DNA of 10,495 bases. Source: Candidatus Wolfebacteria bacterium RIFCSPLOWO2_01_FULL_38_11. Its GTDB lineage: Bacteria; Patescibacteriota; Minisyncoccia; UBA6257; UBA9933. Below, in pieces: positions 75 through 10,415 of the stretch. The notes below the pieces were generated by a model. It was not told where the DNA came from and ran no database searches. It saw only the letters and a list, made by a program, of their open reading frames with translations. Within the stretch, counting starts at the first letter, position 1; each line of letters begins with the position of its first letter. The stretch spans positions 1 through 10,495 of the forward strand of contig MGIQ01000004.1 of assembly GCA_001793825.1 (NCBI GenBank). Reading direction: 5' to 3'. The translations under genes and the position numbers were made by a program.

Positions 75-416
75 TTGGGTATGGATATTAAGGAGTATAA
101 ACAATCAGCCAAGCTTATAAGGGACAATGAGATTTATAAAGTTTACGACTTGTCCGACCTGAATCATTTAACGGTTTCTTTGACCGAGCTGTATCCGCAA
201 AAATCCACAACTGGCCATTCTCACAACAATGCCGATGAGGTTTACGTTTTTATTGACGGCGAAGGTTTAATAGAGGTGGCTGATCGAAAAATTCAAGTTA
301 AGGCCGGGGATATAATGCTTGTGCCTGCCGGCGATTTTCACAGGGTTTATAATCAGGGAGGAAAAACTCTTAGTTTTTGGACAATTTTTGAAAAATACGA
401 GGGCAGAGGCAAATAA
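75..416 (+). CDS. cupin-domain protein (cupin_2, metal-binding)
   Basis: The 113-aa ORF carries both canonical cupin motifs. Motif 1 is HxH-x4-E-x6-G (HSHNNADEVYVFIDG). Motif 2 is G-x5-PxG-x2-H-x3-N (GDIMLVPAGDFHRVYN). The start could be ATG 75 or ATG 81; there is no clear SD. Confidence 0.85.
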   Translation: MGMDIKEYKQSAKLIRDNEIYKVYDLSDLNHLTVSLTELYPQKSTTGHSHNNADEVYVFIDGEGLIEVADRKIQVKAGDIMLVPAGDFHRVYNQGGKTLSFWTIFEKYEGRGK

Positions 417-440
417 ACTCTTGCTTTATCAGTTAGAAAA

Positions 441-473
441 CAAAAAGCCCCAATATTGGGGCTTTTTGTTTTA
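441..473. terminator. bidirectional rho-independent terminator between convergent genes
   Basis: AAAAA-AGCCCCAAtaTTGGGGCT-TTTTTGTTTT. The stem is a perfect 7-8 bp palindrome with an A-tract on the 5' side and a T-tract on the 3' side. It serves the + gene ending at 416 and the - gene ending at 488. Confidence 0.8.
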
Positions 474-487
474 ATTTGCTTTATAAA

Positions 488-1165
488 TTATTCTAATTTC
501 TCCTTAAAACGGTTGATAAGGGAAGAAGCATAATCTTTGCCTCCCAAACCAAAGGCGATTCCGCCTGCCAGTGCAAGCATAGCAACCAAGCCGGTGATTA
601 AGGTATTAAGAAGCATTGGAGCAATGCCTAATTGGATTAAGGCAGCTACAAAGCCGAAAATTACCGTGGCATACCAAGCCAAAGCGGCCAAAAAACCAGA
701 AGCATGAAGCTTAGCTCCCATAACAGAAGCTTTTACTACTGACTTCAGGGCATTGGCGACGATAACGGTTGCGAGCATTATCAAAGCCGCAACAATTATT
801 TGCGGAATATAGCTGACAACCTGCCTTAGGAACTGGGACAATCCTTCAAGCTTGAGAATATCGGCTGCGGCCAAAATAAAAACAATGACTAAAAACCAAT
901 AAACCAAAGCGCCGAAGAATTTTCCGGCATTAACTCTTATGCCGGCGCGTTCAAAGTAGGTTTCCAAACCGAGGCGGCGCAATAAATTGTCGACTTTCGC
1001 AATATTAATAACTCTTTCAACCAATGAACCCAAGCCGGCGGCTACGATTAAGCCGACTATTAAAACTATTAAAGCGCCTATTAAAAACGGCAAGAAACCA
1101 ATAACGCCTCCCCAAACATTAAGGAGAGAATTGACTGTGGCATCTGCCAAATTTTGAACTACCAT
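488..1165 (-). CDS. polytopic membrane protein with two conserved-TM-helix repeats (PF05552 / MscS-N-terminal-like module)
   Basis: The 225-aa protein is highly hydrophobic. There is an internal repeat: residues ~10-60 (LLNVWGGVIGFLPFLIGALIVLIVGLIVAAGLGSLVERVINIAKVD) resemble residues ~110-160 (FLRQVVSYIPQIIVAALIMLATVIVANALKSVVKASV). This pattern matches the 'conserved TM helix' family recalled from memory; no search was run. Confidence 0.55.
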   Translation of the reverse strand: MVVQNLADATVNSLLNVWGGVIGFLPFLIGALIVLIVGLIVAAGLGSLVERVINIAKVDNLLRRLGLETYFERAGIRVNAGKFFGALVYWFLVIVFILAAADILKLEGLSQFLRQVVSYIPQIIVAALIMLATVIVANALKSVVKASVMGAKLHASGFLAALAWYATVIFGFVAALIQLGIAPMLLNTLITGLVAMLALAGGIAFGLGGKDYASSLINRFKEKLE

Positions 1166-1326
1166 TTTTTCTTATCTTATTTATAATAATTAAATCGACC
1201 TTTGGATTTTTCTTTAATTAATTATAGCAAATTAAGGCAATAAGCCAAGATTTAAGTGTGGATAAGTTGTGTTATTGGCAAAAAGGAGCGTTTTTGCATT
1301 ATTTAAAAGAAAAACATTGGATTTTT

Positions 1327-1335
1327 TGCTATAAT
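1327..1335 (+). promoter_or_regulatory. extended -10 promoter element TGcTATAAT for the DUF360-secG-SBP operon
   Basis: TGCTATAAT at 1327-1335 matches TGnTATAAT. TTGCAT at 1294-1299 is 30 bp upstream, too far for a -35. The ATG at 1352 is only ~10 nt from the predicted transcription start site (TSS), giving a near-leaderless mRNA with no SD. Confidence 0.4.
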
Positions 1336-1351
1336 AGATAAAAGCAAACTT

Positions 1352-1720
1352 ATGGTGAATTTAATTGGAAGATTAATTTTTCTTTTTATTTCCAATGTTT
1401 TGGCGCTTTGGCTGGTAAATCATTTTGTAGCGGGGTTTGAAATTTCTTCAAATTACATCAAATTCGCCACAGTGGCGGGGATTTTTACGGCAATTAACAT
1501 ATTTATCAAACCGGTTTTGAAGCTGATTTTAAGCCCTTTTATTATTATAACTTTGGGATTGGGAATAATCTTGATTAACGCGGCAATTCTTTATTTTTTA
1601 GACAGCTACTCGGCGGATATTTCCATTACTGGACTAAATTCCCTATTCTATGCTACTATCATTATCGGAGCGGTTAATTTTGTAACCAGCTTTATTTTTA
1701 AAAGATTACACAAAGATTAA
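1352..1720 (+). CDS. DUF360 / phage holin family 4-like (Phage_holin_4_2, YvlD-like) small membrane protein
   Basis: The 122-aa protein has 4 predicted TM segments. The pattern GF-x-I...AINIFIKPVLKLILSPFIIITLGLGIILINAAILYFL matches the conserved PxL...P..I.TLGLf.LviNa core of the PF04020 family, recalled from memory. Confidence 0.6.
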   Translation: MVNLIGRLIFLFISNVLALWLVNHFVAGFEISSNYIKFATVAGIFTAINIFIKPVLKLILSPFIIITLGLGIILINAAILYFLDSYSADISITGLNSLFYATIIIGAVNFVTSFIFKRLHKD

Positions 1721-1745
1721 TTTGGATTAATTTGGGATTAATTTC
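1704..1745 (+). repeat. four GATTA cores at 10-11 bp phasing, last three as full GATTAATTTG(G) tandem direct repeats
   Basis: GATTA starts at 1704, 1715, 1725 and 1736. Full units: GATTAATTTG (1715-1724), GATTAATTTGG (1725-1735), GATTAATTTC (1736-1745). The array spans the stop codon of the upstream gene and ends 2 nt before the secG ATG. Confidence 0.7.
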
Positions 1746-1747
1746 AT

Positions 1748-1963
1748 ATGTATATTTCAATCGCGCAAGTTGTTGTTTCCGTCATTTTAATAGCTTTGAT
1801 TTTGCTTCAAGAAAGGTCTTCTGGGCTTTCCGGTGTTTTTGGCGGTTCAGAGAGCGGCTTTTATCAGACCAGAAGAGGCTTGGAAAAGGTGATTTTTGGA
1901 GCAACTATTGTTTTAATTATAGTCCTTGTCGGGCTTTCTTTAGTAAATCTTCTCTGGAAATAG
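1748..1963 (+). CDS. secG: preprotein translocase subunit SecG
   Basis: The 71-aa protein has two TM helices flanking the hallmark LLQ-x3-SGLSG-x-FGG-x-E motif (LILLQERSSGLSGVFGGSESGF...RRGLEKV). This is very close to Bacillus SecG (LLQSSKSAGLSG..GGAEQLFG...RGL). The overlapping 87-aa ORF at 1732-1995 in another frame is spurious. Confidence 0.85.
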   Translation: MYISIAQVVVSVILIALILLQERSSGLSGVFGGSESGFYQTRRGLEKVIFGATIVLIIVLVGLSLVNLLWK

Positions 1964-1994
1964 CTTTATTAGCTTTAATCCTGCTTTATTATTG

Positions 1995-3665
1995 ATGATA
2001 TTATTTGGTTTCTTTAGACAATTATTTAAATCTTTTTCTTCTAAGGAGTGGGCGTTCTTAGGAGTTTCTTTGGTTATTTTTTTAACAGCTTTTTCTTTAT
2101 TGGCTGCGAAATTCGTCCGGGAGAATACCCAAATTGTGCCAGTGGCCGGAGGAAATTATATTGAAGGCGTGGTTAGCCAGCCGAGTTTCATCAATCCAAT
2201 ACTGGCGGCTAACGACGCTGACCGGGATTTGACGGAATTAGCTTTTGACGATCTTTCGGAGTTGGCCGAAAGCTATAAAATGGAAGATAACGGGAAAAAG
2301 TGGCGTTATCGCTTAAAAGAGGGAATTTTTTGGCATGACGGCGAGAAAATAACCACTGACGATATAATTTTTACGGTAGAAACAATAAAAAATCCCGATG
2401 TTTACTCCCCTCTTTATTCCAATTGGCAGAGCATTGAAACGTCGAGAGTAAGCGAGCGGGAATTGGAATTTAAGCTGCCGGCGCCTTATGTTTTTTTTGA
2501 GGACACCTTAAAAAATTTAAAGCCGGTTCCAAAGCATATTTTTGGCAATATTCCGGCAACTAACATCAAACTTTCCAATTATAATTTTGAGCCAATCGGC
2601 AGCGGACCTTTTAAATTTAAATCATTTAGCAGGCGAGCGGATGGATATATAAGTTCTTATGTTTTTGAAAAAAATGAAGCATACCAGAAATTTGTTTATT
2701 TGAAGAAAATAAGCTTTAATTTTTATACTAATGAAGTGGAAACAATTAACGCTTTTAATATGGGTGAGGTTGACGGTTTTGGATTAGCAAATCCGGAAAA
2801 TTTGGGGAAAATCGCTTTTTCACACAAGGTATTTCCAATTAGAATGCTGAAGTATTACGCAATTTTCTTAAATCAATTATCACACCCGGCTTTAAAAGAC
2901 AAAAATGTGCGTTTGGCTATGACTATGGCGATTGATAAAATGGAAATTATCGAAAAAGTTTTTAACGGACAGGCAGTTTTGGCCGCGGGTCCCTTGGTAG
3001 AAGGAATGGAAGGATTTGATAAGCAGGTTTATTCAGAAAATGTTTTTTCGGCGGAGAAAGCCAATCAGATACTTGAAAGTATGGGCTGGGAATGGAATAA
3101 TGAGGAAAATGTCAGGGAAGGGCAGATTAATGACGAAATAGTAAAACTGGAATTTAATTTGTCGGTGCCGGAAATTTCATTTTTAATAGAAACCGCGAAT
3201 TTAATTAAAGGACAGCTGGCAAAAATCGGAGTGAAAATTAATTTGTCAATTGCTCCTATTTCGGAAATCAACAATAAGACAATTAAAAATAGGGATTATC
3301 AGATAATTTTGTTTGGAAATATTTTGGGAGACAGCCCTGACTTATTTTCGTTTTGGCATTCTTCGGGAAGTTTCTATCCTGGGCTTAATTTATCGCTTTA
3401 CGGAAGCAAAACAGCAGATAGTTTAATTGAAACAATAAGAAAAGATTTTGACGAACAAAAAAAACAATCAGAACTTTCTTCTTTACAATATTTGATTATC
3501 GGAGATTATCCAGCTATTTTTCTTTATTCGCCTAATTATCTTTATATCGGCAAGAAATCATTTTCCGGGTTTGAAGATTCATTTATTTCTTTTTCGAGCG
3601 AACGGTTGAAAAGTATTGAAAATTGGTATACAAAAACAGCGAGAAGTTTAAAAAATAGAAACTAA
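1995..3665 (+). CDS. ABC transporter substrate-binding protein, family 5 (SBP_bac_5; Opp/Dpp/Nik-like), N-terminally membrane-anchored
   Basis: The protein is 556 aa from ATG 1995; the track starts at TTG 1992. There is an N-terminal TM anchor (FLGVSLVIFLTAFSLLAA). The family-5 signature region is W-x-DG-x-x-T-x-D-x-x-F (IFWHDGEKITTDDIIFTVET). Size and conservation pattern are typical of cluster-C SBPs. No permease or ATPase genes are adjacent. Confidence 0.7.
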   Translation: MILFGFFRQLFKSFSSKEWAFLGVSLVIFLTAFSLLAAKFVRENTQIVPVAGGNYIEGVVSQPSFINPILAANDADRDLTELAFDDLSELAESYKMEDNGKKWRYRLKEGIFWHDGEKITTDDIIFTVETIKNPDVYSPLYSNWQSIETSRVSERELEFKLPAPYVFFEDTLKNLKPVPKHIFGNIPATNIKLSNYNFEPIGSGPFKFKSFSRRADGYISSYVFEKNEAYQKFVYLKKISFNFYTNEVETINAFNMGEVDGFGLANPENLGKIAFSHKVFPIRMLKYYAIFLNQLSHPALKDKNVRLAMTMAIDKMEIIEKVFNGQAVLAAGPLVEGMEGFDKQVYSENVFSAEKANQILESMGWEWNNEENVREGQINDEIVKLEFNLSVPEISFLIETANLIKGQLAKIGVKINLSIAPISEINNKTIKNRDYQIILFGNILGDSPDLFSFWHSSGSFYPGLNLSLYGSKTADSLIETIRKDFDEQKKQSELSSLQYLIIGDYPAIFLYSPNYLYIGKKSFSGFEDSFISFSSERLKSIENWYTKTARSLKNRN

Positions 3666-3727
3666 CGAATAAGGATTAGCGAAGAGCAAATAGTTCTTTC
3701 ACTAAAAAATATGCCCCCGTGGCGGAA

Positions 3728-3757
3728 CCCCGTATAACAGCAAAGCTGTATACGGGG
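3728..3757 (+). promoter_or_regulatory. stable RNA hairpin (13-bp stem, 1-nt bulge, AAA loop) between SBP gene and tRNA-Leu; no T-tract
   Basis: CCCCGTATAaCAGC-AAA-GCTGTATACGGGG. Four G-C pairs close each end. It lies 31 nt upstream of the tRNA 5' end. It is not a canonical intrinsic terminator because CAAGTTGGCAG follows. It may be a 3'-end stabiliser or processing determinant. Confidence 0.5.
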
Positions 3758-3788
3758 CAAGTTGGCAGATTTATCCTGTACAGCTGGT

Positions 3789-3874
3789 GGGCGGGTGGTG
3801 AAATGGCAAACACGTAGGCTTCAGGAGCCTATGGCCGAAAGGCTTTGAGGGTTCAAGTCCCTCCTCGCCCACCA
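3789..3874 (+). tRNA. tRNA-Leu (anticodon CAG), type II with long variable arm, CCA encoded
   Basis: The tRNA is 86 nt. The acceptor stem GGGCGGG pairs with CTCGCCC, including one G-U pair. It has U8, a 3-bp D-stem (GTG/CAC) with a long D-loop typical of bacterial tRNA-Leu, and an anticodon stem TAGGC/GCCTA. The anticodon loop is TTCAGGA, giving anticodon CAG with U33 and G37. The variable arm is 15 nt (TGGCCGAAAGGCTTT). The T-arm is GAGGG-TTCAAGT-CCCTC, the discriminator is A, and the 3' end is CCA. Confidence 0.9.
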
Positions 3875-3877
3875 CTT

Positions 3878-3900
3878 GTACGGGACGCGTACGTTTTCTC
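3878..3900 (+). terminator. weak intrinsic terminator after tRNA-Leu(CAG)
   Basis: A 5-bp stem GTACG/CGTAC with loop GGACG is followed by GTTTTCTC. The stem is short. Confidence 0.35.
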
Positions 3901-4005
3901 GGGAGCACCAAAATTACATTAAATAAAAATAATAAACATTAAAACTCTTTTTTAATTAAATTTTATTAATTTTTAAAGGTTTTTATTTGTTTAATAAATT
4001 AAATT

Positions 4006-5727
4006 ATGTTCAAAACAAGAACAACAAAAATATTAAAAACAAGGAAAGCGGTTTTGGGAGAAAAAGGAGCGGTGCGGTTTGCCGCTTTGGGAGGATTGGG
4101 AGAAATCGGCCGGAACATGATGTTTTTCGAATATGAAGATGAAATCATTATTATTGACGCCGGTTTGCAATTTCCCGAAGAAACAACTCCGGGCATTGAT
4201 TTTATAATCCCGAATGTTTCGTATTTGGGAGGAAAGAAAAAAAACGTTAAAGCATTGGTAATTACTCATGGCCATTATGACCATATCGGCGCTATTCCCT
4301 ATATAATGGAGCAAATCGGCAATCCAACGATTTACGCTACTTCAATCACCAAAGAGATTGTGGCGAGAAGACAAGAAGAATTTCCCAATGCGCCGAAACT
4401 GGATTTTGAAATGATTAAAGCTGGAGAAACCCATCAATTATCAAAAAATTTCAAAGCTCATTTTTTTGGAGTAACTCATAATATCCCCGAAGGCGTGGGG
4501 ATGATGCTGGAGACGCCGGTCGGCAATATTGTCCATCCGGGAGAATTTAAATTTGATTATGATTTAGAAGGAAAGCCGAAGGATTTGGAAGTTTGGGAAA
4601 AATTGGGAGAGCAGAAGATTCATACGCTTTTGCTTGATTCAACCGGAGCAGAAGAGCCGGGATATTCAATTTCAGAAAGAATAGTGGAAGCAGAACTGGA
4701 AAAATTATTTAAGCAAGCGGAGGGACGGATTATTCTCGGCACCTTTGCTTCGCTTTTAGACAGATTGGCGGAAATTATTAAAATAGCTGAACGGCTGGGG
4801 AAAAAAGTGGCAGTAAGCGGTTCGTCAATGAAAACCAATATCCAAATTGCGCGGAATCTGGGTTATATGAAAATAGGAAAAGATGTTTTAATACCATTGG
4901 AAGAGATAGGAAAATATCGAGATGATAAAATTTTAGTACTTTGCACCGGAGCGCAAGGCGAACCGCAGGCGCAACTGATGAGGATTGCGAGCGGAGAACA
5001 TCGCTATATCCAAGTAAAAAAAGGAGATACGGTTATTCTTTCTTCGTCCGTAATTCCGGGTAATGAACGGAGTGTGCAGATTTTGAAAGATGATTTGGCG
5101 CGGCAAGGCGCTTTGGTTTATCACTATAAAATGGTGGATATCCATTCTAGCGGTCATGCGCCACAGGAAGAGCTTAAAAGCGTAATGAAAATGGTAAAGC
5201 CTAAATTTTTTATTCCTATTCACGGATATTATTTTATGCGCTGGAGAAACGCTAAATTGGCGCAGGACGCTATAAAATTAAAACCAGAAGAAACAGTATT
5301 GCTTGATAACGGCCAAGTGGCTTTGATCAAGAAAGATTCGGTTGAGATTTCCGGAGAAACCGTGCCGGCTTATTATGTGATGGTTGACGGATTGGGAGTG
5401 GGAGACGTGGGAGAAGTGGTATTAAGAGACAGAAGAGTATTGGCGCAGGAAGGAATGGTGGTAATTATCTCGACATTAGACAGGCAAACCGGCAGGTTTT
5501 TGAAGAACCCGGATATTATTTCCCGCGGATTTATTTATTTGAAAGAAAACAAAGAATTAGTGGAAGAAGTGAGAAAAAAAATCAGGCATTTAATTTCATC
5601 GGTTCCGCGCCATCAGCAGCCGGATGCTGATTACATCAAGGGGACAATTAGAGATCAAATCGGCCAATATCTTTATAAGAAGACAAAAAGAAGGCCGATG
5701 ATTTTGCCGGTGGTGATTGAAGTATAA
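4006..5727 (+). CDS. rnj: ribonuclease J (metallo-beta-lactamase / beta-CASP RNase)
   Basis: The 573-aa protein has the N-terminal consensus FAALGGLGEIGRNMMFFEYEDEIIIIDAGLQFPEE, typical of RNase J. It carries the MBL motif HGHYDHIG (HxHxDH), the downstream beta-CASP region and a C-terminal domain. The length matches RNase J1/J2 (~555 aa). It is preceded by an ~105-nt AT-rich leader of more than 85% AT. Confidence 0.9.
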   Translation: MFKTRTTKILKTRKAVLGEKGAVRFAALGGLGEIGRNMMFFEYEDEIIIIDAGLQFPEETTPGIDFIIPNVSYLGGKKKNVKALVITHGHYDHIGAIPYIMEQIGNPTIYATSITKEIVARRQEEFPNAPKLDFEMIKAGETHQLSKNFKAHFFGVTHNIPEGVGMMLETPVGNIVHPGEFKFDYDLEGKPKDLEVWEKLGEQKIHTLLLDSTGAEEPGYSISERIVEAELEKLFKQAEGRIILGTFASLLDRLAEIIKIAERLGKKVAVSGSSMKTNIQIARNLGYMKIGKDVLIPLEEIGKYRDDKILVLCTGAQGEPQAQLMRIASGEHRYIQVKKGDTVILSSSVIPGNERSVQILKDDLARQGALVYHYKMVDIHSSGHAPQEELKSVMKMVKPKFFIPIHGYYFMRWRNAKLAQDAIKLKPEETVLLDNGQVALIKKDSVEISGETVPAYYVMVDGLGVGDVGEVVLRDRRVLAQEGMVVIISTLDRQTGRFLKNPDIISRGFIYLKENKELVEEVRKKIRHLISSVPRHQQPDADYIKGTIRDQIGQYLYKKTKRRPMILPVVIEV

Positions 5728-7095
5728 TTAAAAAAGTTTAGCTTGGGTTTCTGGTTCTTTGCCTGATTTTTTAGGCGATTTTTTCTTTATTTCTTTTGTT
5801 TTTCCGAAAATGCTTATTTTTCCGTATTCGCCGTCAAAGCCCGGTTCGATTTTTACTTTTCCTCCTCTTACCAACTTAATGGCTTCGGCAATTTTAGGGT
5901 GAGCGGATTTTTCAAGGTCGCTGATTTCTGTTTCCAAAAGAATTTTTAATTCACTGCCAAAAGTTTTAATGAGATTTTCGTATTCGGCTTTAGCTTTTTT
6001 GGAAATGGCGGAAGTCTCCAAAGCTTCACTAATGATTCCGTCTAAAGTAATAAGATTATAATAAGGAACAAAATTATTGAAAGAGCGATAGTTGCCGTTT
6101 TTTTCGATTTTTATTTGGCGGTCAGCGAGCTGGTCTACGCGATTTACAACGCCGATGGTAAGCGGCCGGCCGCATTTGGGGCAAATATTTTTGTGTTTTT
6201 TAGAATCTTGGGGAGAAAAAACAACACCGCAATTTCTATGGCCGTCAAAATGATATTTGCCTTCTTCGGGGAAAAATTCAATAGTGGCAACAAAGTTAGG
6301 TTCTATGTTTTGGGTTTTATGTTTTAGGTTTTTTCTAAAATTAGGGATACCGCTTTTTATTGCGTCAAATATCCCCTGATAAGACAATTTTGTGTCAAAT
6401 ATATTGGCCTCTCGACCGATTTTTGGCAAAGAATGGGAATCAGAATTGGAAATCAAAGCAAGATTGTCTAATTTTGACAGGCGCCAGTTCATCTCCGGGT
6501 CGCTGGAAAGTCCAGTCTCTATGGCAAAAATATTTTTTGAATATTTGCCAAAACATTCTTCAATAGAATCAAAGCCGGACATTGAGCCGAAAATGGCAAA
6601 CCAAGGAGTCCAGGCATGAGCGGGAATGATAACCGCCTCGGGATTGATGTTAAAGACAATTTCCGCAAGTTTTTCCGCGTCCAAACCTAAAATTGGACGG
6701 CCGTCGGATTTTAAATTTCCAACAAGAGAAAGGTGAGTGTTGATGGCTTCGGCTGTTTTAAAATCCGGCGCGAAAACCAAATTATGAATGCGGCGGACGC
6801 GGCCGGCTTTGGAATAAATACCGGAAATTTCCACGCTTAACAAAAATCTAGTATCAGCAAAAGTTCCTTTAAGGGTTTTTTTCTTAAATTCTTTTTTTAA
6901 TTGGAAAAGGCCGGGTTCGGCCGGCTCTAATTTTTCTTTTATTTCTTGGAAATAAAGAGGGTGGGTGAAATCCCCTGTTCCCATAACTTGAATACCTTTA
7001 TCGTCAGCCCAGTGGTCTAAGTCAGCAATGTTCATATCAGGGCTGGTGGCGCGGGAATAATGGGAATGAATATGGAGGTCGGAGATGAATCTCAT
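5728..7095 (-). CDS. PHP-domain nuclease, endonuclease Q-like (TIGR00375-type family) with CxxC zinc knuckle
   Basis: The protein is 455 aa from ATG at 7095 (CAT at 7093-7095 on + strand). It begins MRFISDLHIHSHYSRA, the PHP motif I (HxH). Later PHP His/Asp motifs are present: IIPAHAWTPWF and SNSDSHS. It has a zinc knuckle, H-x2-NC...CPKCG, and a Lys-rich low-complexity C-terminal tail. The track ORF started at 7188, but codons 1-31 of that are antisense of tRNA-Leu, so the start was trimmed. The endonuclease Q family assignment is from memory of its N-terminal DLHIHS..YSRA motif plus Zn finger. Confidence 0.6.
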   Translation of the reverse strand: MRFISDLHIHSHYSRATSPDMNIADLDHWADDKGIQVMGTGDFTHPLYFQEIKEKLEPAEPGLFQLKKEFKKKTLKGTFADTRFLLSVEISGIYSKAGRVRRIHNLVFAPDFKTAEAINTHLSLVGNLKSDGRPILGLDAEKLAEIVFNINPEAVIIPAHAWTPWFAIFGSMSGFDSIEECFGKYSKNIFAIETGLSSDPEMNWRLSKLDNLALISNSDSHSLPKIGREANIFDTKLSYQGIFDAIKSGIPNFRKNLKHKTQNIEPNFVATIEFFPEEGKYHFDGHRNCGVVFSPQDSKKHKNICPKCGRPLTIGVVNRVDQLADRQIKIEKNGNYRSFNNFVPYYNLITLDGIISEALETSAISKKAKAEYENLIKTFGSELKILLETEISDLEKSAHPKIAEAIKLVRGGKVKIEPGFDGEYGKISIFGKTKEIKKKSPKKSGKEPETQAKLF

Positions 7096-7109
7096 AAATT
7101 TATTTTTAA

Positions 7110-7194
7110 TGGTGCCGAGGGTGGGATTTGAACCCACATGCCTTGCGGCGCTAGCTCCTAAAGCTAGTGCGTCTGCCAATTTCGCCACCTCGGC
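7110..7194 (-). tRNA. tRNA-Leu (anticodon UAG), type II, CCA encoded
   Basis: On the minus strand the tRNA is 85 nt. The acceptor is GCCGAGG/CCTCGGC. It has U8 and G9, a 3-bp D-stem (GCG/CGC) with an 11-nt D-loop, and an anticodon stem CTAGC/GCTAG. The anticodon loop is TTTAGGA, giving anticodon TAG that reads CUA. The variable arm is 13 nt. The T-arm is GTGGG-TTCAAAT-CCCAC, the discriminator is A, and it ends in CCA. The overall sequence closely resembles bacterial tRNA-Leu (GCCGAAGTGGCGAAAT...). Confidence 0.9.
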
Positions 7195-7253: not shown

Positions 7254-7282
7254 TTGACGTCTATATAATTTTATGATATAAT
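7254..7282 (+). promoter_or_regulatory. near-consensus sigma70 promoter (TTGACG-17-TATAAT with TGn extension) for the SPFH operon
   Basis: TTGACG at 7254-7259, an exact 17-bp spacer, and TATAAT at 7277-7282. The -10 is preceded by TGA (TGaTATAAT), an extended -10. The predicted TSS is ~7289, giving a ~68-nt 5' UTR that contains a strong SD (GGAGGA) 6 nt before ATG 7358. Confidence 0.7.
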
Positions 7283-7357: not shown

Positions 7358-8575
7358 ATGAGTGTAGAAAGGATGACAAAGTGGATTTTTTTAAGCGTTG
7401 CAGTAATTCTCAATTTTTTTCTTATCATTGTTGAATATGTCTGGCTTTCAAAATATTCAATAATGATTGGCGAGTGGGAATGTAATTTGGGTTGGGCTAC
7501 TTTTTTTGCTCAGCTTCTTTATAATATTCTTAGTTTTCGAATAGTCGGACCAACAGAGCTTGGAGCATTGCTTTTCTTTGGTAGGCCCATACGCGATGTG
7601 GATTCTGGGTTGAGATTTGTTCCGTTTCTTGTATGCCGGTTGGCAAGGAATACAAAAAATGCTATTGAGATTGAACTTCCGGCCCGGCCTGAACTAATAT
7701 ACAGGGCTGAGCGAGGGAAAGAAGAGGTTGTACCGGAAAATCTTCTAAAGCTCGGATTCAGGCCTCCAATCAGAGTTCAATTTGGGTGGCCAGGAATTAA
7801 ACTAGAGACAGAAGATCTCGGGGGTAAAATCAAAGATCCTAAAACAAAAGAAGAGGAACGCGAAAAAGCTATAAAAACTAAAGAACTCTACGACGCCTTG
7901 AATAAACTTATAATAGGCGAAATCTTTGAGGGTGATCCATTAAATGTCCGTATGACTGTGGAAACCCCCCTTGTAGTTCGGCTGAAAATCAGCAGTCTCG
8001 TTAATTTTTTGGAAGTATTCGGCTCGATAGAGAACGCAGAAGACCATATACAAGACATCGCGGTAGCGATGCTTAACCGGGAATTTTCAAAAATCACTCC
8101 CGCAGTAGCGCAACATCATCTCGGAACGTTTAGCAATTTAATAAAAGATGATGTTATCGAAAGAATAAGAAGCGACAAAGGGAGTGATTGTGGCGTAAAT
8201 ATTATGACAGTACTCTTACGCCCCTTTGTTTACAGCCACGAGTTTAATGCGGCTATTCAAGAGCCAGCCGAAGAGCGAGCGAAAAAACAGGCAACTGTTA
8301 CTGCCGCTGAAGCCCAGAAGCGAAAAGATATCCTTGAAGGAGAGGGTCAAGGAGCAAAAGAAAAAGCCATAATTGATGGCCGAACAAAAGGCCTTACGAA
8401 TATGGCAAAAGAACTTGGTGTTTTGCCCTTAGCTGTATTGAGCGCAGAAACAGCGCGAGCAATTACGGCAAATCCAGGCCAAAAGACAATTATTGCCGGC
8501 ACAGCTGGTTTTAACGATCTGATGGCTGTGGGTGCTGCCCTTGGAGAAGTCTTTAGAAAGGAGGATAAAAAATGA
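7358..8575 (+). CDS. SPFH / band-7 domain protein (stomatin/HflC-like), membrane-anchored, with atypical ~85-aa charged insertion
   Basis: The 405-aa protein has an N-terminal TM helix (IFLSVAVILNFFLIIVEYVW). The SPFH beta-start is GALLFFGRPIRDVDSGLRFVPFLVCRLAR, corresponding to GPGLHF.IPFID.V. The SPFH core is VRMTVETPLVVRL...AVAMLNREF...GVNIMTVLLRPFVYSHEFNAAI. The typical C-terminal coiled-coil is AEAQKRKDILEGEGQGAKEKAI. The SD is AGGAGG. GC content (~45-53%) is clearly above the window background (~37%). Confidence 0.75.
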   Translation: MSVERMTKWIFLSVAVILNFFLIIVEYVWLSKYSIMIGEWECNLGWATFFAQLLYNILSFRIVGPTELGALLFFGRPIRDVDSGLRFVPFLVCRLARNTKNAIEIELPARPELIYRAERGKEEVVPENLLKLGFRPPIRVQFGWPGIKLETEDLGGKIKDPKTKEEEREKAIKTKELYDALNKLIIGEIFEGDPLNVRMTVETPLVVRLKISSLVNFLEVFGSIENAEDHIQDIAVAMLNREFSKITPAVAQHHLGTFSNLIKDDVIERIRSDKGSDCGVNIMTVLLRPFVYSHEFNAAIQEPAEERAKKQATVTAAEAQKRKDILEGEGQGAKEKAIIDGRTKGLTNMAKELGVLPLAVLSAETARAITANPGQKTIIAGTAGFNDLMAVGAALGEVFRKEDKK

Positions 8576-9123
8576 AGTTCCCACTGGTTGTATTTTTCTT
8601 GATTCTGGCAATAGTCATTTTTATGAAATGGCGTCAGAGTCAGGATCAGTTAGCGTCAGTGATAAAGGGAAAAGAACCAGGTAAAGGCGGACAGAAAAAA
8701 CCGGCGCGGAAAATCCCAAAAATCGGTTACGCGATTTTATTCATTATTCTTGTTTCCGTGATTTCGATTTTTTATAAATCGGAAATAAGAGAGTGGATAG
8801 AATCCAGGCCAGCGAAAACTGTTCTTGCGGCGCAGATAGTTTATCCCGCGTGTTATGACGCGCAAGATATAATGGCCAGGGGAGCAAGTGAGATAATTGC
8901 GAGACCGAATTGCTGGTCTGGCAATATCTCCATTCCGCCGCAGAGCTGGTTTCGAATCGTGCCTTCTGGGAAAGTGACGATTCGGACTTGGGCTGGCAGA
9001 GTGATTCGCGACGGCCCCGGGCAAGCCAACTGGCTGGGAGACGATATCCGAGACGGCAATTTCCGGATAATCTCGGACGAAAGCCAACCGGTTAAAGTCG
9101 CAATCCTTTCTCGGCCAAAATGA
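8572..9123 (+). CDS. uncharacterised 2-TM membrane protein with Lys-rich cytoplasmic loop and Cys-containing extracytoplasmic C-terminal domain; SPFH operon partner (NfeD-like role hypothesised)
   Basis: The 183-aa protein starts at an ATG overlapping the upstream stop (ATGA at 8572-8575), so the two genes are translationally coupled. The SD is AGGAGGAT, 6 nt upstream. TM1 is residues 4-18, followed by a K/R-rich loop (KGKEPGKGGQKKPARKIPK). TM2 is ~51-68. The ~115-aa C-terminal domain has 2 Cys (YPACYDAQ...RPNCWSG) and is Arg/Gly/Asp-rich (GRVIRDGPGQANWLGDDIRDGNFRII). GC content is ~52-55%. No family was recognised. Confidence 0.7.
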   Translation: MKFPLVVFFLILAIVIFMKWRQSQDQLASVIKGKEPGKGGQKKPARKIPKIGYAILFIILVSVISIFYKSEIREWIESRPAKTVLAAQIVYPACYDAQDIMARGASEIIARPNCWSGNISIPPQSWFRIVPSGKVTIRTWAGRVIRDGPGQANWLGDDIRDGNFRIISDESQPVKVAILSRPK

Positions 9124-9160
9124 GAGCGAAAGAATAAATTTAATAAAGGAGGTGAAAACC

Positions 9161-9194
9161 AAAACCCCGCTTGAGTTAAGAGCGGGGTTTTTTA
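9161..9194. terminator. bidirectional rho-independent terminator
   Basis: AAAA-CCCCGCT-tgagttaag-AGCGGGG-TTTTTT. The 7-bp GC-rich stem has a T-tract on the + strand and an A-tract that reads as a U-tract for the - strand. It lies between convergent genes ending at 9123 (+) and 9216 (-). Confidence 0.8.
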
Positions 9195-9215: not shown

Positions 9216-9602
9216 TTATTGTCCAGTTGAAACGAATGATTTAACAATTAGATTTATGCTAACTGCCAATAAAGCAACGACGATTGCAACAACAGCGTAA
9301 ATAATTTGATTTTTAGCTGAACCAACTTTTTCCGGATCACCGCCTGATGTCAAATAAGTGAAAGCGGCGAATAAAATCATTATGCCGGCAATAATGAAAA
9401 AGATGGTATATATCCATTGGAAGGCATAAATTATCAATCCAACAACTCCGCCTATGTTTTCTGACGGAAGAATTTGATTAATGCCAAGATCGCCTGACCC
9501 CGGGATTTCTCCCTTAGTGATGGCAAAAGCGGTATTTGTTATAAGGCCAGACATTATAATCATTAATGATAGGCCGATAATTATTAATAAATTAAATTTC
9601 AT
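9216..9602 (-). CDS. small secreted 2-TM protein, paralog 3 of tandem pilin-like family (VirB2/TrbC-type topology)
   Basis: The 128-aa protein has an N-terminal signal peptide with an AxA site (TNTAFA|ITKG). The mature protein has a short variable N-terminus (GEIPGSGDLGINQILPSEN), then TM1 (LIIYAFQWIYTIFFIIAGIMILFAAFTYL), a conserved loop TSGGDPEKVGSAKNQ, and TM2 (IIYAVVAIVVALLAVSINLIV). It is ~65% identical to paralog 2 over the TM core. Confidence 0.75.
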   Translation of the reverse strand: MKFNLLIIIGLSLMIIMSGLITNTAFAITKGEIPGSGDLGINQILPSENIGGVVGLIIYAFQWIYTIFFIIAGIMILFAAFTYLTSGGDPEKVGSAKNQIIYAVVAIVVALLAVSINLIVKSFVSTGQ

Positions 9603-9665
9603 GATTATTTTGTTTTAATTTACGACCTTTTTGTTTATTATATTTAATTTTAGCAAAAAATAAAA

Positions 9666-10025
9666 TTAATTTCCTGTGGATATAAAATTAGAAATAATGG
9701 CGGTAAAACTGACGGATAAAAGAGCAATAATAATGGCAATGACGGCATATAAAATTTGCTTGTTGGCAGTTTTAATTTTTTCAGCATCGCCTTGGGCGGT
9801 AAGATATGCGAAAGCGGCGAGAATTATAAAAATGGCGGCAACAATAAAGAAAATCGTATACATCCATTTAACGACATTTACCAGTATTCTAATTATATCA
9901 TTAACGCTTTTTACCGGCGTATCAACATCTGCCGCAAAAACATTCAACGGAACTAAAAAGGAAATTAGGAAATTGACGGAAATTAAGAGACCTATCGAAG
10001 TCAGCAAGAATTTATTTGATTTCAT
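9666..10025 (-). CDS. small secreted 2-TM protein, paralog 2 of tandem pilin-like family
   Basis: The 119-aa protein has a signal peptide with cleavage site NVFA|ADVD. It shares the core WMYTIFFIVAAIFIILAAFAYLTAQGDAEKIKTANKQILYAVIAIIIALLSVS with paralogs 1 and 3. It lies 9 nt downstream of paralog 1's stop with no SD, suggesting coupled translation. The 120-aa + strand ORF at 9676-10038 is its antisense shadow. Confidence 0.75.
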   Translation of the reverse strand: MKSNKFLLTSIGLLISVNFLISFLVPLNVFAADVDTPVKSVNDIIRILVNVVKWMYTIFFIVAAIFIILAAFAYLTAQGDAEKIKTANKQILYAVIAIIIALLSVSFTAIISNFISTGN

Positions 10026-10034
10026 AAATTTTCA

Positions 10035-10415
10035 TTAAATTTTGCCGGATAAATTAGCGCCTAAAATTTCTCCGACAATATAAATAATGCCGTAACTGCA
10101 AATAATTATAGCATATCCGATAACCGCCCATTTAATAGTATTTTGGCCACTTTTGACTTTTTCCGGGTTGTCGCCAGCGGTTAAAATTTGAAAAGCTCCG
10201 TAAATGACCATAATTACGAGAATCGGAGCGCCGATTTTAATAAGATAGCCAATAATACCCTTGAGAAGATCGGTAAAGCTGTCGTATTTAAGAGGATTTG
10301 CAAAGCCGCCGGTTCCACCGCCTATATCAGCAAGCGAAAAACTCGTGGAAATAATAAACAAGAGCGGAATAAACAGAAAGAGAAGAGCAAATTTATTTTT
10401 TAATAATTTAATCAT
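10035..10415 (-). CDS. small secreted 2-TM protein, paralog 1 (most divergent) of tandem pilin-like family
   Basis: The 126-aa protein has a signal peptide with cleavage site SFSLA|DIGGG and a Gly-rich mature N-terminus (DIGGGTGGFANPLKYDSF). Its core IYGAFQILTAGDNPEKVKSGQNTIKWAVIGYAII retains the A-F-x-x-L-T-x-G-D-x-E-K-V...Q/K-x-I loop signature of the family. Confidence 0.7.
   Translation of the reverse strand: MIKLLKNKFALLFLFIPLLFIISTSFSLADIGGGTGGFANPLKYDSFTDLLKGIIGYLIKIGAPILVIMVIYGAFQILTAGDNPEKVKSGQNTIKWAVIGYAIIICSYGIIYIVGEILGANLSGKI

What the first reader, a model, noticed from the sequence alone, without database searches (positions are those of the whole stretch)
8572..9123. Uncharacterised SPFH-operon partner: 2-TM anchor, polybasic cytoplasmic loop, Cys-pair ectodomain
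The topology follows the positive-inside rule. TM1 is followed by the KGKEPGKGGQKKPARKIPK loop, then TM2, then a ~115-aa exterior domain with two Cys (YPACYDAQ … RPNCWSG) and an Arg/Asp/Gly-rich beta-like C-terminus (GKVTIRTWAGRVIRDGPGQANWLGDDIRDGNFRIISDESQPVKVAIL). The C-terminal ~55 residues are loosely reminiscent of the OB-fold beta-barrel of short NfeD proteins such as YbbJ/YuaF, which partner SPFH proteins. The extra ~60-aa Cys-containing segment and the downstream gene order are atypical. No confident family assignment is possible by eye, so this is a good candidate for a new SPFH-associated protein family.
Basis: partly seen in the sequence, partly recalled or inferred. Interest (0 to 1): 0.6.

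Follow-up and report, generated by a model that had tools for sequence, protein, structure and literature searches.

The report
New SPFH-partner protein beside pilin genes

Summary
The ORF at 8572-9123 (+) is real. It has a strong ribosome-binding site, its ATG overlaps the stop of an upstream SPFH/Band_7 gene (ATGA), and it has two TM helices, a basic loop and two Cys, as described.

The conserved unit is the C-terminal ~91 aa (residues 93-183). A profile of it finds 64 credible representative proteins. In all of them the module ends the protein behind 1 to ~7 TM helices, and none hits Pfam, NCBIfam, PHROGs or PADLOC over it.

Four members insert an SLT lytic transglycosylase before the module, and the two Cys co-occur (15/16 versus 7/50), so the module lies outside the cell.

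In 12-13 of 15 loci an SPFH gene lies immediately upstream. The partners form three mutually unalignable types, so the SPFH is swapped while the pairing is kept. All 19 loci with downstream sequence have a convergent VirB2-like pilin array. DNA homology between related loci begins at the module boundary and runs into the pilins.

Best reading: an SPFH-scaffolded, outward-facing binding module linked to the pilin or cell-wall apparatus. It is a new family; the function is inferred.

The parts
7254..7282 (+). Promoter-like site (TTGACG, 17 nt, TATAAT with TG) ahead of the SPFH gene; probable start of the two-gene operon
   Evidence: 11 of 12 consensus matches. This is a consensus match only, not shown to function.
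7358..8575 (+). SPFH/Band_7 partner gene (405 aa, 'type A'): two N-terminal hydrophobic segments, a divergent SPFH domain with a probable insertion, and a coiled-coil C-terminus
   Evidence: Pfam Band_7 31.3 bits against a cut-off of 23.6. No PDB sequence relative. Type A relatives occur in L001, L007, L018 and L021.
8558..8565 (+). Shine-Dalgarno sequence AAGGAGGA, 7 nt before the ATG of the target
   Evidence: Sequence read directly.
8572..9123 (+). Target gene (183 aa plus stop); its ATG overlaps the SPFH stop codon (ATGA), implying translational coupling
   Evidence: The same -4 to 0 nt junction occurs in 12 loci.
8578..8622 (+). TM1 (residues 3-17), with the N-terminus predicted outside
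   Evidence: Hydropathy. Conserved in homologs P0002, P0006, P0009, P0024 and P0034. Dropped by the GenBank start at M18.
8623..8721 (+). Basic low-complexity loop (residues 18-50), predicted cytoplasmic
   Evidence: 10 K/R against 2 D/E. In nine 2-TM members the loops total 60 K/R against 26 D/E.
8722..8772 (+). TM2 (residues 51-67)
   Evidence: Hydropathy.
8773..8847 (+). Variable linker (residues 68-92), low model confidence
   Evidence: No conservation in A1. pLDDT 40-53.
8848..9120 (+). Conserved C-terminal module (residues 93-183): predicted extracytoplasmic cupin-like jelly-roll β-sandwich. Cys94 (8851-8853) and Cys114 (8911-8913) are a probable disulfide.
9161..9191 (.). GC-rich hairpin with an A-run before it and a T-run after it: a terminator-like site shared by the convergent operons
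   Evidence: 12-bp stem with 6 GC pairs. Sequence. The scan called it on the + strand; the bidirectional reading is an inference from the flanking A and T runs.
9216..9602 (-). VirB2-like pilin gene 1 (T4SS_pilin), convergent with the target
   Evidence: PF18895 E = 4.1e-10. DNA homology with L005 and L006 runs from the module into this gene.
9666..10025 (-). VirB2-like pilin gene 2
   Evidence: PF18895 E = 4.1e-7.
10035..10415 (-). VirB2-like pilin gene 3. A fourth follows on the fully identical metagenome contig L008.
   Evidence: PF18895 E = 4.8e-11. L008 pilins.

Best explanation
The gene encodes a bitopic, hairpin-anchored membrane protein. It has a very short N-terminus outside, TM1, a basic cytoplasmic loop, TM2, a flexible linker, and a ~90-aa extracytoplasmic β-sandwich module. 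The module has a small cupin-like jelly-roll fold and, in this subgroup, is stapled by a Cys94-Cys114 disulfide. It founds an unannotated family so far named only in Patescibacteria (Wolfebacteria, Lloydbacteria).

The proposed mechanism has three steps:
1. The protein is made in fixed proportion with a cytoplasm-facing SPFH scaffold through translational coupling.
2. Its TM hairpin and basic loop are held in the membrane patch organised by the SPFH oligomer.
3. The module projects into the wall zone as a non-enzymatic binding domain. It serves the adjacent VirB2-like pilin apparatus and/or local peptidoglycan remodelling. In four family members the same module follows an SLT lytic transglycosylase, which resembles VirB1 (SLT plus the pilus-promoting VirB1* fragment).

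Shown here: the gene, the domain boundaries, the family, the fold class (by prediction), the absence of a metal site, the SPFH pairing and the pilin adjacency. Inferred: the topology, the disulfide, physical contact with the SPFH protein, and the ligand.
For: - **Gene and coupling:**
- **Family:** 64 credible representatives, with the module always at the extreme C-terminus behind TM helices. No hit in Pfam, NCBIfam, PHROGs or PADLOC.
- **No metal site:** no conserved His (maximum 20 of 66 in any column), and five conserved aromatic columns.
- **Outside location:** SLT fusions P0012, P0018, P0067 and P0068; basic loop; Cys co-occurrence with 20-24 residue spacing, Fisher p = 9e-9, not corrected for phylogeny.
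- **SPFH pairing:** 12 Pfam-confirmed plus 1 probable of 15 loci. The partners fall into three groups with no BLAST similarity between them. P0002 and P0003 have modules 77% and 71% identical to the target's, yet follow type A and type B SPFH genes respectively. The window and L004 are syntenic on the far side (PHP gene, tRNA-Leu) but carry different SPFH types.
- **Pilin link:** a convergent T4SS_pilin array in all 19 loci with downstream sequence, although outer flanks differ: ribosomal operon and FolD in L017, IF-2/RbfA in L016, an integrase in L018. DNA homology between loci starts at the module boundary and runs through the terminator into the pilins. L013 reads SPFH, then TM-SLT-module, then five convergent pilins.
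- **Literature:** VirB2-like pilin arrays are a described and, in Southlakia, essential feature of Patescibacteria (10.1101/2025.01.22.634366; PMC10633639). Neither paper mentions SPFH. VirB1 is SLT plus a C-terminal fragment required for T-pilus formation (PMC3202754).
Against: - No experiment and no co-fold supports contact with SPFH or with pilins.
- The pilin genes are on the opposite strand, so they are not co-transcribed. The family is narrow, so shared ancestry (conserved synteny with the pilin-SBP_bac_1-gyrA block) could explain part of the adjacency.
- The SPFH domain is inferred to be cytoplasmic and the module exterior, so they cannot touch directly. Only the TM hairpin and the loop could.
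- Two long multi-TM forms (L005, L006) lack any SPFH neighbour.
- No virB4 or virB6-like gene lies within 10 kb in L023.
- In Agrobacterium, T4SS localisation to detergent-resistant membranes does not need SPFH proteins (PMC8656257).
- Cys94 lies in the low-confidence start of the model, so the disulfide is not seen structurally.
Confidence: 0.45

Rival explanations
1. It is a general cell-wall-binding (CBM-like) anchor and a client of the SPFH microdomain. It has no functional tie to the pilins, and the pilin adjacency is inherited synteny only.
Against: The adjacency holds in 19 of 19 loci even where the far side of the array differs (L017 has FolD instead of SBP/gyrA). Recombination breakpoints keep the module with the pilins while replacing everything upstream.
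Confidence: 0.25
2. It is a divergent NfeD-type partner: a membrane-anchored OB-fold domain that binds the SPFH protein on the cytoplasmic side.
For: It shares an operon with an SPFH gene, and it is small and membrane-anchored with an all-β C-terminal domain.
Confidence: 0.04
3. It is a membrane-anchored cupin enzyme (a metal-dependent isomerase, epimerase or oxygenase) acting on an envelope substrate.
Against: No conserved His or other cupin metal-ligand motif. No cupin Pfam hit in any member. At ~80 aa the core is at the minimum for the fold. Non-enzymatic cupins (CENP-C, the GGCX lumenal domain) score equally well.
Confidence: 0.05
4. The SPFH pairing is incidental, and the protein works alone or with its own multi-TM anchor.
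For: L005 and L006 have the module without any SPFH gene. The module is shuffled onto unrelated anchors.
Against: There is a 4-nt start/stop overlap in most loci, and three unrelated SPFH types have been recruited to the same position. That is hard to explain without selection for the pairing.
Confidence: 0.08

Closest known systems
NfeD proteins (YuaF/NfeD2, YbbJ, PH0471/PH1510 C-terminal domain; Pfam PF01957)
   Same: A small membrane-anchored protein with an all-β C-terminal domain, encoded in a two-gene operon with an SPFH protein. It may play an analogous role as the dedicated partner of an SPFH scaffold.
   Different: No sequence match. The predicted fold is a cupin-like jelly-roll rather than a five-stranded OB barrel. 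It has two rather than three hydrophobic segments. The domain is predicted outside the cell rather than cytosolic. The gene lies downstream rather than upstream of the SPFH gene (PMC2636767, PMC11222466).
VirB1 of Agrobacterium-type T4SS (SLT domain plus the C-terminal VirB1* fragment needed for T-pilus formation)
   Same: Four family members have SLT followed by the module, and they are encoded next to VirB2-like pilin genes. A C-terminal non-catalytic part beside a lytic transglycosylase is the VirB1 layout (PMC3202754).
   Different: The window protein itself has no SLT domain. It is TM-anchored rather than secreted. No similarity to VirB1* was tested. No virB4 cluster was seen nearby.
Small non-enzymatic cupin/β-sandwich modules (CENP-C/Mif2 cupin dimerisation domain, GGCX lumenal domain, CBM_E1, PA-IL-type lectins)
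   Different: No detectable sequence relationship. The module has a different context (a C-terminal ectodomain on a bacterial membrane anchor) and a subgroup-specific disulfide.
HflK/C-FtsH and related SPFH cages that enclose TM clients
   Same: An SPFH oligomer paired with a specific membrane-protein client. This is the model for how the anchor could be corralled.
   Different: The client here is a small binding protein rather than a protease. The SPFH domain is inferred to be cytoplasmic, unlike the periplasmic HflK/C. The complex is not demonstrated.

Membership tests
NfeD (PF01957) | Sequence match to the NfeD profile | tested here: not met
   No PF01957 hit for the target at E<=1, or for any of the 68 sequences scanned at E<=0.01.
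NfeD (PF01957) | C-terminal five-stranded OB-fold β-barrel (PH0471 2EXD, YuaF; PMC2636767, PMC4208085) | tested here: not met
NfeD (PF01957) | About three N-terminal hydrophobic stretches, total length ~140-150 aa | tested here: not met
   The target has two hydrophobic segments in 183 aa. The family ranges from 1 to ~7.
NfeD (PF01957) | Soluble domain on the cytoplasmic side, binding the SPFH protein (PMC11222466) | tested here: inconclusive
   The positive-inside rule, the SLT fusions and the Cys pair all place the module outside. This is an inference with no experimental topology.
NfeD (PF01957) | Operon with an SPFH gene | tested here: met
   ATGA overlap with a Band_7 gene. 12-13 of 15 loci show the pairing.
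Cupin superfamily (double-stranded β-helix) | Jelly-roll/DSBH fold | tested here: met
Cupin superfamily (double-stranded β-helix) | Conserved His/Glu metal-binding motifs | tested here: not met
   No column has His in more than 20 of 66 sequences, and no His is among the conserved positions.
Cupin superfamily (double-stranded β-helix) | Sequence match to a cupin family profile | tested here: not met
   No cupin Pfam family among the hits of the 68 sequences scanned. The PDB profile search gives only summed hairpin matches to designed propellers.
VirB1-like T4SS assembly factor | SLT lytic transglycosylase domain | tested here: not met
   Absent from the window protein. Present in family members P0012, P0018, P0067 and P0068.
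VirB1-like T4SS assembly factor | Encoded with VirB2-type pilin genes | tested here: met
   Three PF18895 genes lie immediately downstream in convergent orientation. The same holds in all 19 loci with downstream sequence.
VirB1-like T4SS assembly factor | Homology of the C-terminal part to VirB1*; requirement for pilus formation | not tested
   No VirB1* sequence or profile was available here. The function needs genetics.
VirB1-like T4SS assembly factor | Located in a virB4-containing T4SS cluster | tested here: not met
   No VirB4 or VirB6-type Pfam family within ±10 kb in L023, or ±5-6 kb in the other loci.
SPFH/Band_7 (the partner gene 7358-8575) | Match to PF01145 above the gathering score | tested here: met
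   31.3 bits against 23.6. Partners in 11 other loci also pass (precomputed; direct scan).

The most novel reading that the evidence does not exclude
The SPFH gene, the module protein and the convergent VirB2-like pilin array form one previously unrecognised envelope unit of Patescibacteria. The module, fused to SLT in some lineages, is a VirB1*-like factor that nucleates or anchors the pilin polymer at a wall opening. The interchangeable SPFH scaffold (or, alternatively, a multi-TM anchor) fixes the assembly site in the membrane. That would supply a missing assembly component for the pilin arrays that are essential for the epibiotic lifestyle.
Probability: 0.2. Interest if true: 0.75.

Novelty: new variant of a known kind. 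Interest (0 to 1): 0.55.

Why it matters
SPFH scaffolds occur throughout life, but their dedicated bacterial partners are essentially limited to NfeD and FtsH. A second, structurally unrelated partner family that faces outward would widen the picture of what SPFH microdomains organise.

The constant adjacency to VirB2-like pilin arrays also matters. These arrays are essential in the one genetically tractable Patescibacterium, and their assembly is not understood. The adjacency gives a concrete candidate accessory factor, a defined domain to express and test, and a ready HMM for annotating a protein family that is currently 'hypothetical'.

Tried and rejected
- **Family libraries.** Pfam, NCBIfam, PHROGs and PADLOC scans of the target and the whole family found nothing over the module.
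- **PDB sequence searches.** The single sequence gave nothing. The profile gave only designed β-propellers (Cake, Bagel) through summed weak hairpin matches with no stretch significant on its own, plus the CPAP G-box at E 0.04-0.1. I judged these spurious, like the repeat proteins P0041 and P0047 in the profile search.
The full-length model was shallow (pLDDT 65) and every hit was at E>0.01. The domain model superseded it.
- **BFVD viral structures.** Only generic small cupin-like hits, none at E<=0.001.
- **tblastn against phage and plasmid records.** No match. No relative in viral contigs either. A phage or plasmid origin is therefore not supported.
- **afdb50 fold search.** Not available.
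- **The search for related loci with the broad alignment.** Failed for lack of a conserved stretch. The tighter alignment found only 1 genome locus and 8 metagenome loci.
- **Local SPFH HMM iteration.** It recovered only type A partners and was replaced by Pfam scans.
- **High GC of the module as a sign of horizontal transfer.** Rejected: the module is GC-enriched in 10 of 13 homologous loci, so this reflects its amino-acid composition.
- **Rfam and tRNA scans.** No RNA gene inside the finding.
- **The antisense ORF 8737-9162.** Treated as a by-product of the GC-rich stretch and not pursued.
Full report
**1. Observation.**

The ORF at 8572..9123 (+) exists and encodes 183 aa. An AAGGAGGA Shine-Dalgarno sequence (8558-8565) precedes the ATG by 7 nt. 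The ATG overlaps the TGA of the upstream gene as ATGA.

Hydropathy gives two hydrophobic segments, residues ~3-17 and ~51-67. They are separated by a loop with 10 K/R and 2 D/E. C94 and C114 and the quoted C-terminal sequence are all present.

A promoter-like site at 7254-7282 (11 of 12 consensus positions) lies ahead of the upstream gene. A strong hairpin at 9161-9191, with an A-run before it and a T-run after it, follows the target. The unit is therefore a two-gene operon that ends at a terminator shared with the convergent genes downstream.

The window comes from Candidatus Wolfebacteria RIFCSPLOWO2_01_FULL_38_11. GenBank annotates the protein as hypothetical and starts it at M18, giving 166 aa. 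Homologs conserve TM1, so the 183-aa form is preferred.

**2. What is conserved.**

The word-indexed search of 5.8 billion proteins found only five relatives. They share only the last ~91 residues, at 71-77% identity. Their N-terminal regions have 2, 4 or ~7 TM helices and are unrelated to one another.

A profile of that module, searched against 1.84 billion representatives, found 66 proteins at E<=1e-3 and 21 at E<=1e-10. Two of the 66 are repeat-protein artefacts. In the other 64 the module lies within 0-7 residues of the C-terminus. In nearly all it follows one to several TM helices.

None of the 68 sequences scanned has a Pfam hit over the module. NCBIfam, PHROGs and PADLOC are also silent. 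There is no match in phage or plasmid records or in viral contigs. Source names exist only for Wolfebacteria, Lloydbacteria and 'Patescibacteria group'.

**3. Fold.**

No NfeD or OB-fold entry is in the top 60. No column of the alignment conserves His (at most 20 of 66). The conserved positions are W115, S116, P122, F127-R128-I129, G133, W140, G142, P149, W154, G156, F164, S168 and V176. The module is therefore a cupin-like β-sandwich without the cupin metal site. That points to a binding or assembly domain rather than an enzyme (inference).

**4. Topology.**

Three independent observations put the module outside the cytoplasm.

First, in nine members with the same 2-TM layout, TM1 starts at the N-terminus. 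The inter-TM loops carry 60 K/R against 26 D/E. The post-TM2 linkers are neutral, with 48 K/R against 44 D/E.

Second, four members (P0012, P0018, P0067, P0068) insert a bona fide SLT lytic transglycosylase between the anchor and the module, with Pfam E-values down to 1.9e-31. A peptidoglycan enzyme must be exterior.

Third, the two Cys co-occur. 15 of 16 members with Cys at the 'CWSG' position have a second Cys 20-24 residues upstream. Only 7 of 50 other members have any upstream Cys. Fisher p = 9e-9, uncorrected for relatedness. This fits a disulfide that ties the N-terminal extension to the first core strand. Cys94 lies in the low-confidence start of the model, so the bond is not seen directly. 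The Cys pair is specific to a subgroup; most members have Q, R or K at position 114.

**5. The SPFH partner.**

The upstream gene (7358-8575) passes the Pfam Band_7 threshold, 31.3 against 23.6 bits. It is too divergent for any PDB sequence hit.

Of 15 distinct loci with upstream sequence, 12 have a Pfam-confirmed Band_7 gene immediately upstream on the same strand, with a gap of -4 to 0 nt. One more (L022) has a 407-aa protein that matches L020's SPFH by BLAST only.

The partners form three groups with no BLAST similarity between groups:
- A: window, L001, L007, L018, L021.
- B: L004, L013, L015, L019.
- C: L016, L017, L020, L022.

Close module relatives sit behind different types. P0002 (module 77% identical to the target) follows type A. 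P0003 (71%) follows type B. The window and L004 share the flanking PHP-family gene and tRNA-Leu, yet the window carries type A and L004 type B. The SPFH gene has therefore been replaced while the pairing was kept. That argues for selection on the pairing rather than inheritance alone.

N-terminal charge patterns suggest that the SPFH domains face the cytoplasm. For example, L018 has 24 K/R in its 65-residue N-tail, followed by two hydrophobic segments. This is a moderate-confidence inference. If it is right, the SPFH domain and the module are on opposite sides of the membrane, and only the TM hairpin and basic loop can contact the scaffold.

Two long multi-TM forms (L005, L006) have no SPFH gene. 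An unrelated 179- or 200-aa helical protein lies upstream instead.

**6. The pilin neighbours.**

Directly downstream, in convergent orientation, the window has three T4SS_pilin (PF18895, VirB2/TrbC-like) genes. All 19 loci with downstream sequence have such an array of 2-5 genes. In many, the array continues into SBP_bac_1 and gyrA on the same strand.

The outer flanks differ between loci:
- Ribosomal protein operon and FolD in L017.
- IF-2/RbfA in L016.
- An integrase in L018.
- CysS in L019.

BLASTN between related loci shows that homology begins at window nt 8848 or 8851 for L005 and L006, which is the first codons of the module. For L004 and L001 it begins at 8879 and 8887. For L004, L005 and L006 it continues through the terminator into the pilin genes. 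L014 and L015 share 83% identity over 1,299 nt from the module start through the pilins, but they have unrelated anchors. The conserved block is therefore module plus pilin array. The variable cassette is the anchor plus SPFH or its substitute.

L013 shows SPFH (type B), then TM-TM-SLT-module, then five convergent pilins.

VirB2-like arrays of 2-11 genes are a described feature of Patescibacteria (10.1101/2025.01.22.634366). They are essential in Southlakia (PMC10633639). Neither paper mentions SPFH, flotillin or stomatin, and a search for SPFH together with Patescibacteria found nothing relevant. No virB4-type gene lies within ±10 kb in L023.

**7. Mechanism.**

Best-supported reading, confidence 0.45 for the whole chain: translational coupling delivers the hairpin-anchored protein together with a cytoplasm-facing SPFH oligomer. 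The oligomer holds the anchor in a defined membrane patch. The exterior β-sandwich binds an envelope partner.

The SLT fusions and the conserved module-pilin block make peptidoglycan and/or the VirB2-like pilins the leading candidate partners. The layout recalls VirB1, whose N-terminal lytic transglycosylase is followed by VirB1*, a fragment required for T-pilus formation (PMC3202754). This is an analogy only; homology was not tested.

Cautions:
- The pilins are on the other strand.
- The family is phylogenetically narrow.
- In Agrobacterium, T4SS localisation to detergent-resistant membranes is independent of SPFH proteins (PMC8656257).

**8. Comparison with known families.**

NfeD is defined by the following features (PMC2636767, PMC4208085, PMC11222466):
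- About 140-150 aa.
- Three hydrophobic stretches.
- A C-terminal five-stranded OB barrel that is cytosolic and binds flotillin.
- A gene usually placed first in the operon.

Here only the operon feature is met. The profile match, the fold and the TM count fail, and the domain location is predicted to be the opposite. The protein may act as an SPFH partner in the way NfeD does, but it is not an NfeD.

It belongs to the cupin fold class by prediction, but it lacks the cupin sequence motifs and metal site.

**9. Verdict.**

It is a new, unannotated family, which I class as a new variant of the 'SPFH operon partner' kind. Its function is inferred, not shown.

Noticed in passing
window 8572-8622 (versus GenBank start at 8623): The public annotation (P0001, A2999_01325, 166 aa) starts at M18 and omits TM1. 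The upstream ATG has a strong SD sequence and overlaps the SPFH stop, and homologs conserve TM1.
   Followed up: yes
window 7110-7194 (-) and 3789-3874 (+): Two tRNA-Leu genes (anticodons tag and cag). The mechanical ORF 5728-7188 reads through the first one (N-terminus '...GSNPT...'). The real start of that PHP-family gene is probably the Met at about 7095.
   Followed up: partly
L004 about 415-4787: Between the PHP-family gene and the tRNA-Leu, which are adjacent in the window, L004 has a ~4.3-kb insertion. It carries three unannotated genes and a large serine recombinase, so it is probably an integrated mobile element next to the tRNA.
   Followed up: partly
window 8848-9123: The module DNA is 54% GC against 38.7% for the window, the sharpest GC peak in the window. 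The same enrichment is seen in 10 of 13 homologous loci, so it reflects the G/R/P/W/D-rich composition rather than recent transfer.
   Followed up: yes
L005 1380-1919; L006 5154-5756: Where the module sits on a multi-TM anchor, the SPFH gene is replaced by an unannotated 179- or 200-aa helical protein. The two appear similar to each other by eye and have no family hit. They may be an alternative partner.
   Followed up: partly
window 7358-8575: The Band_7 match covers only residues 200-321 (profile positions 59-176). The typical SPFH start ('FRIVGPTELG...FGRP', residues ~60-78) lies ~120 residues earlier. This suggests a ~100-aa charged insertion inside the SPFH domain of type A partners.
   Followed up: no
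window 9216-10415 (-); L021, L022, L023: In relatives the pilin genes are the distal part of a minus-strand gyrA-SBP_bac_1-pilin operon with 4-nt overlaps. In L023 the block is about 10 kb from parB. Housekeeping gyrA co-transcribed with pilins is an odd combination.
   Followed up: no
P0049 (352 aa) and its cluster member P0078 (638 aa, Euryarchaeota 'TPR protein'): A weak family hit (E = 3.6e-5) joins an FGE-sulfatase domain to the module without any TM helix. It shares a 90% cluster with an archaeal protein, so the module may reach beyond Patescibacteria.
   Followed up: no
window 488-3665 versus L023 18062-20444: The same gene set (MscS-like, Phage_holin_4_2, SecG, SBP_bac_5) lies upstream of the SPFH operon in the window, but beyond gyrA on the other side in L023. 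This shows rearrangement around a stable SPFH-module-pilin core.
   Followed up: no
alignment A4, extreme C-terminus (window residues 181-183): The module always ends the protein. 35 of 66 members end in a P[KRN] motif within the last six residues, most often 'RPK'. A free C-terminus may matter for function.
   Followed up: partly
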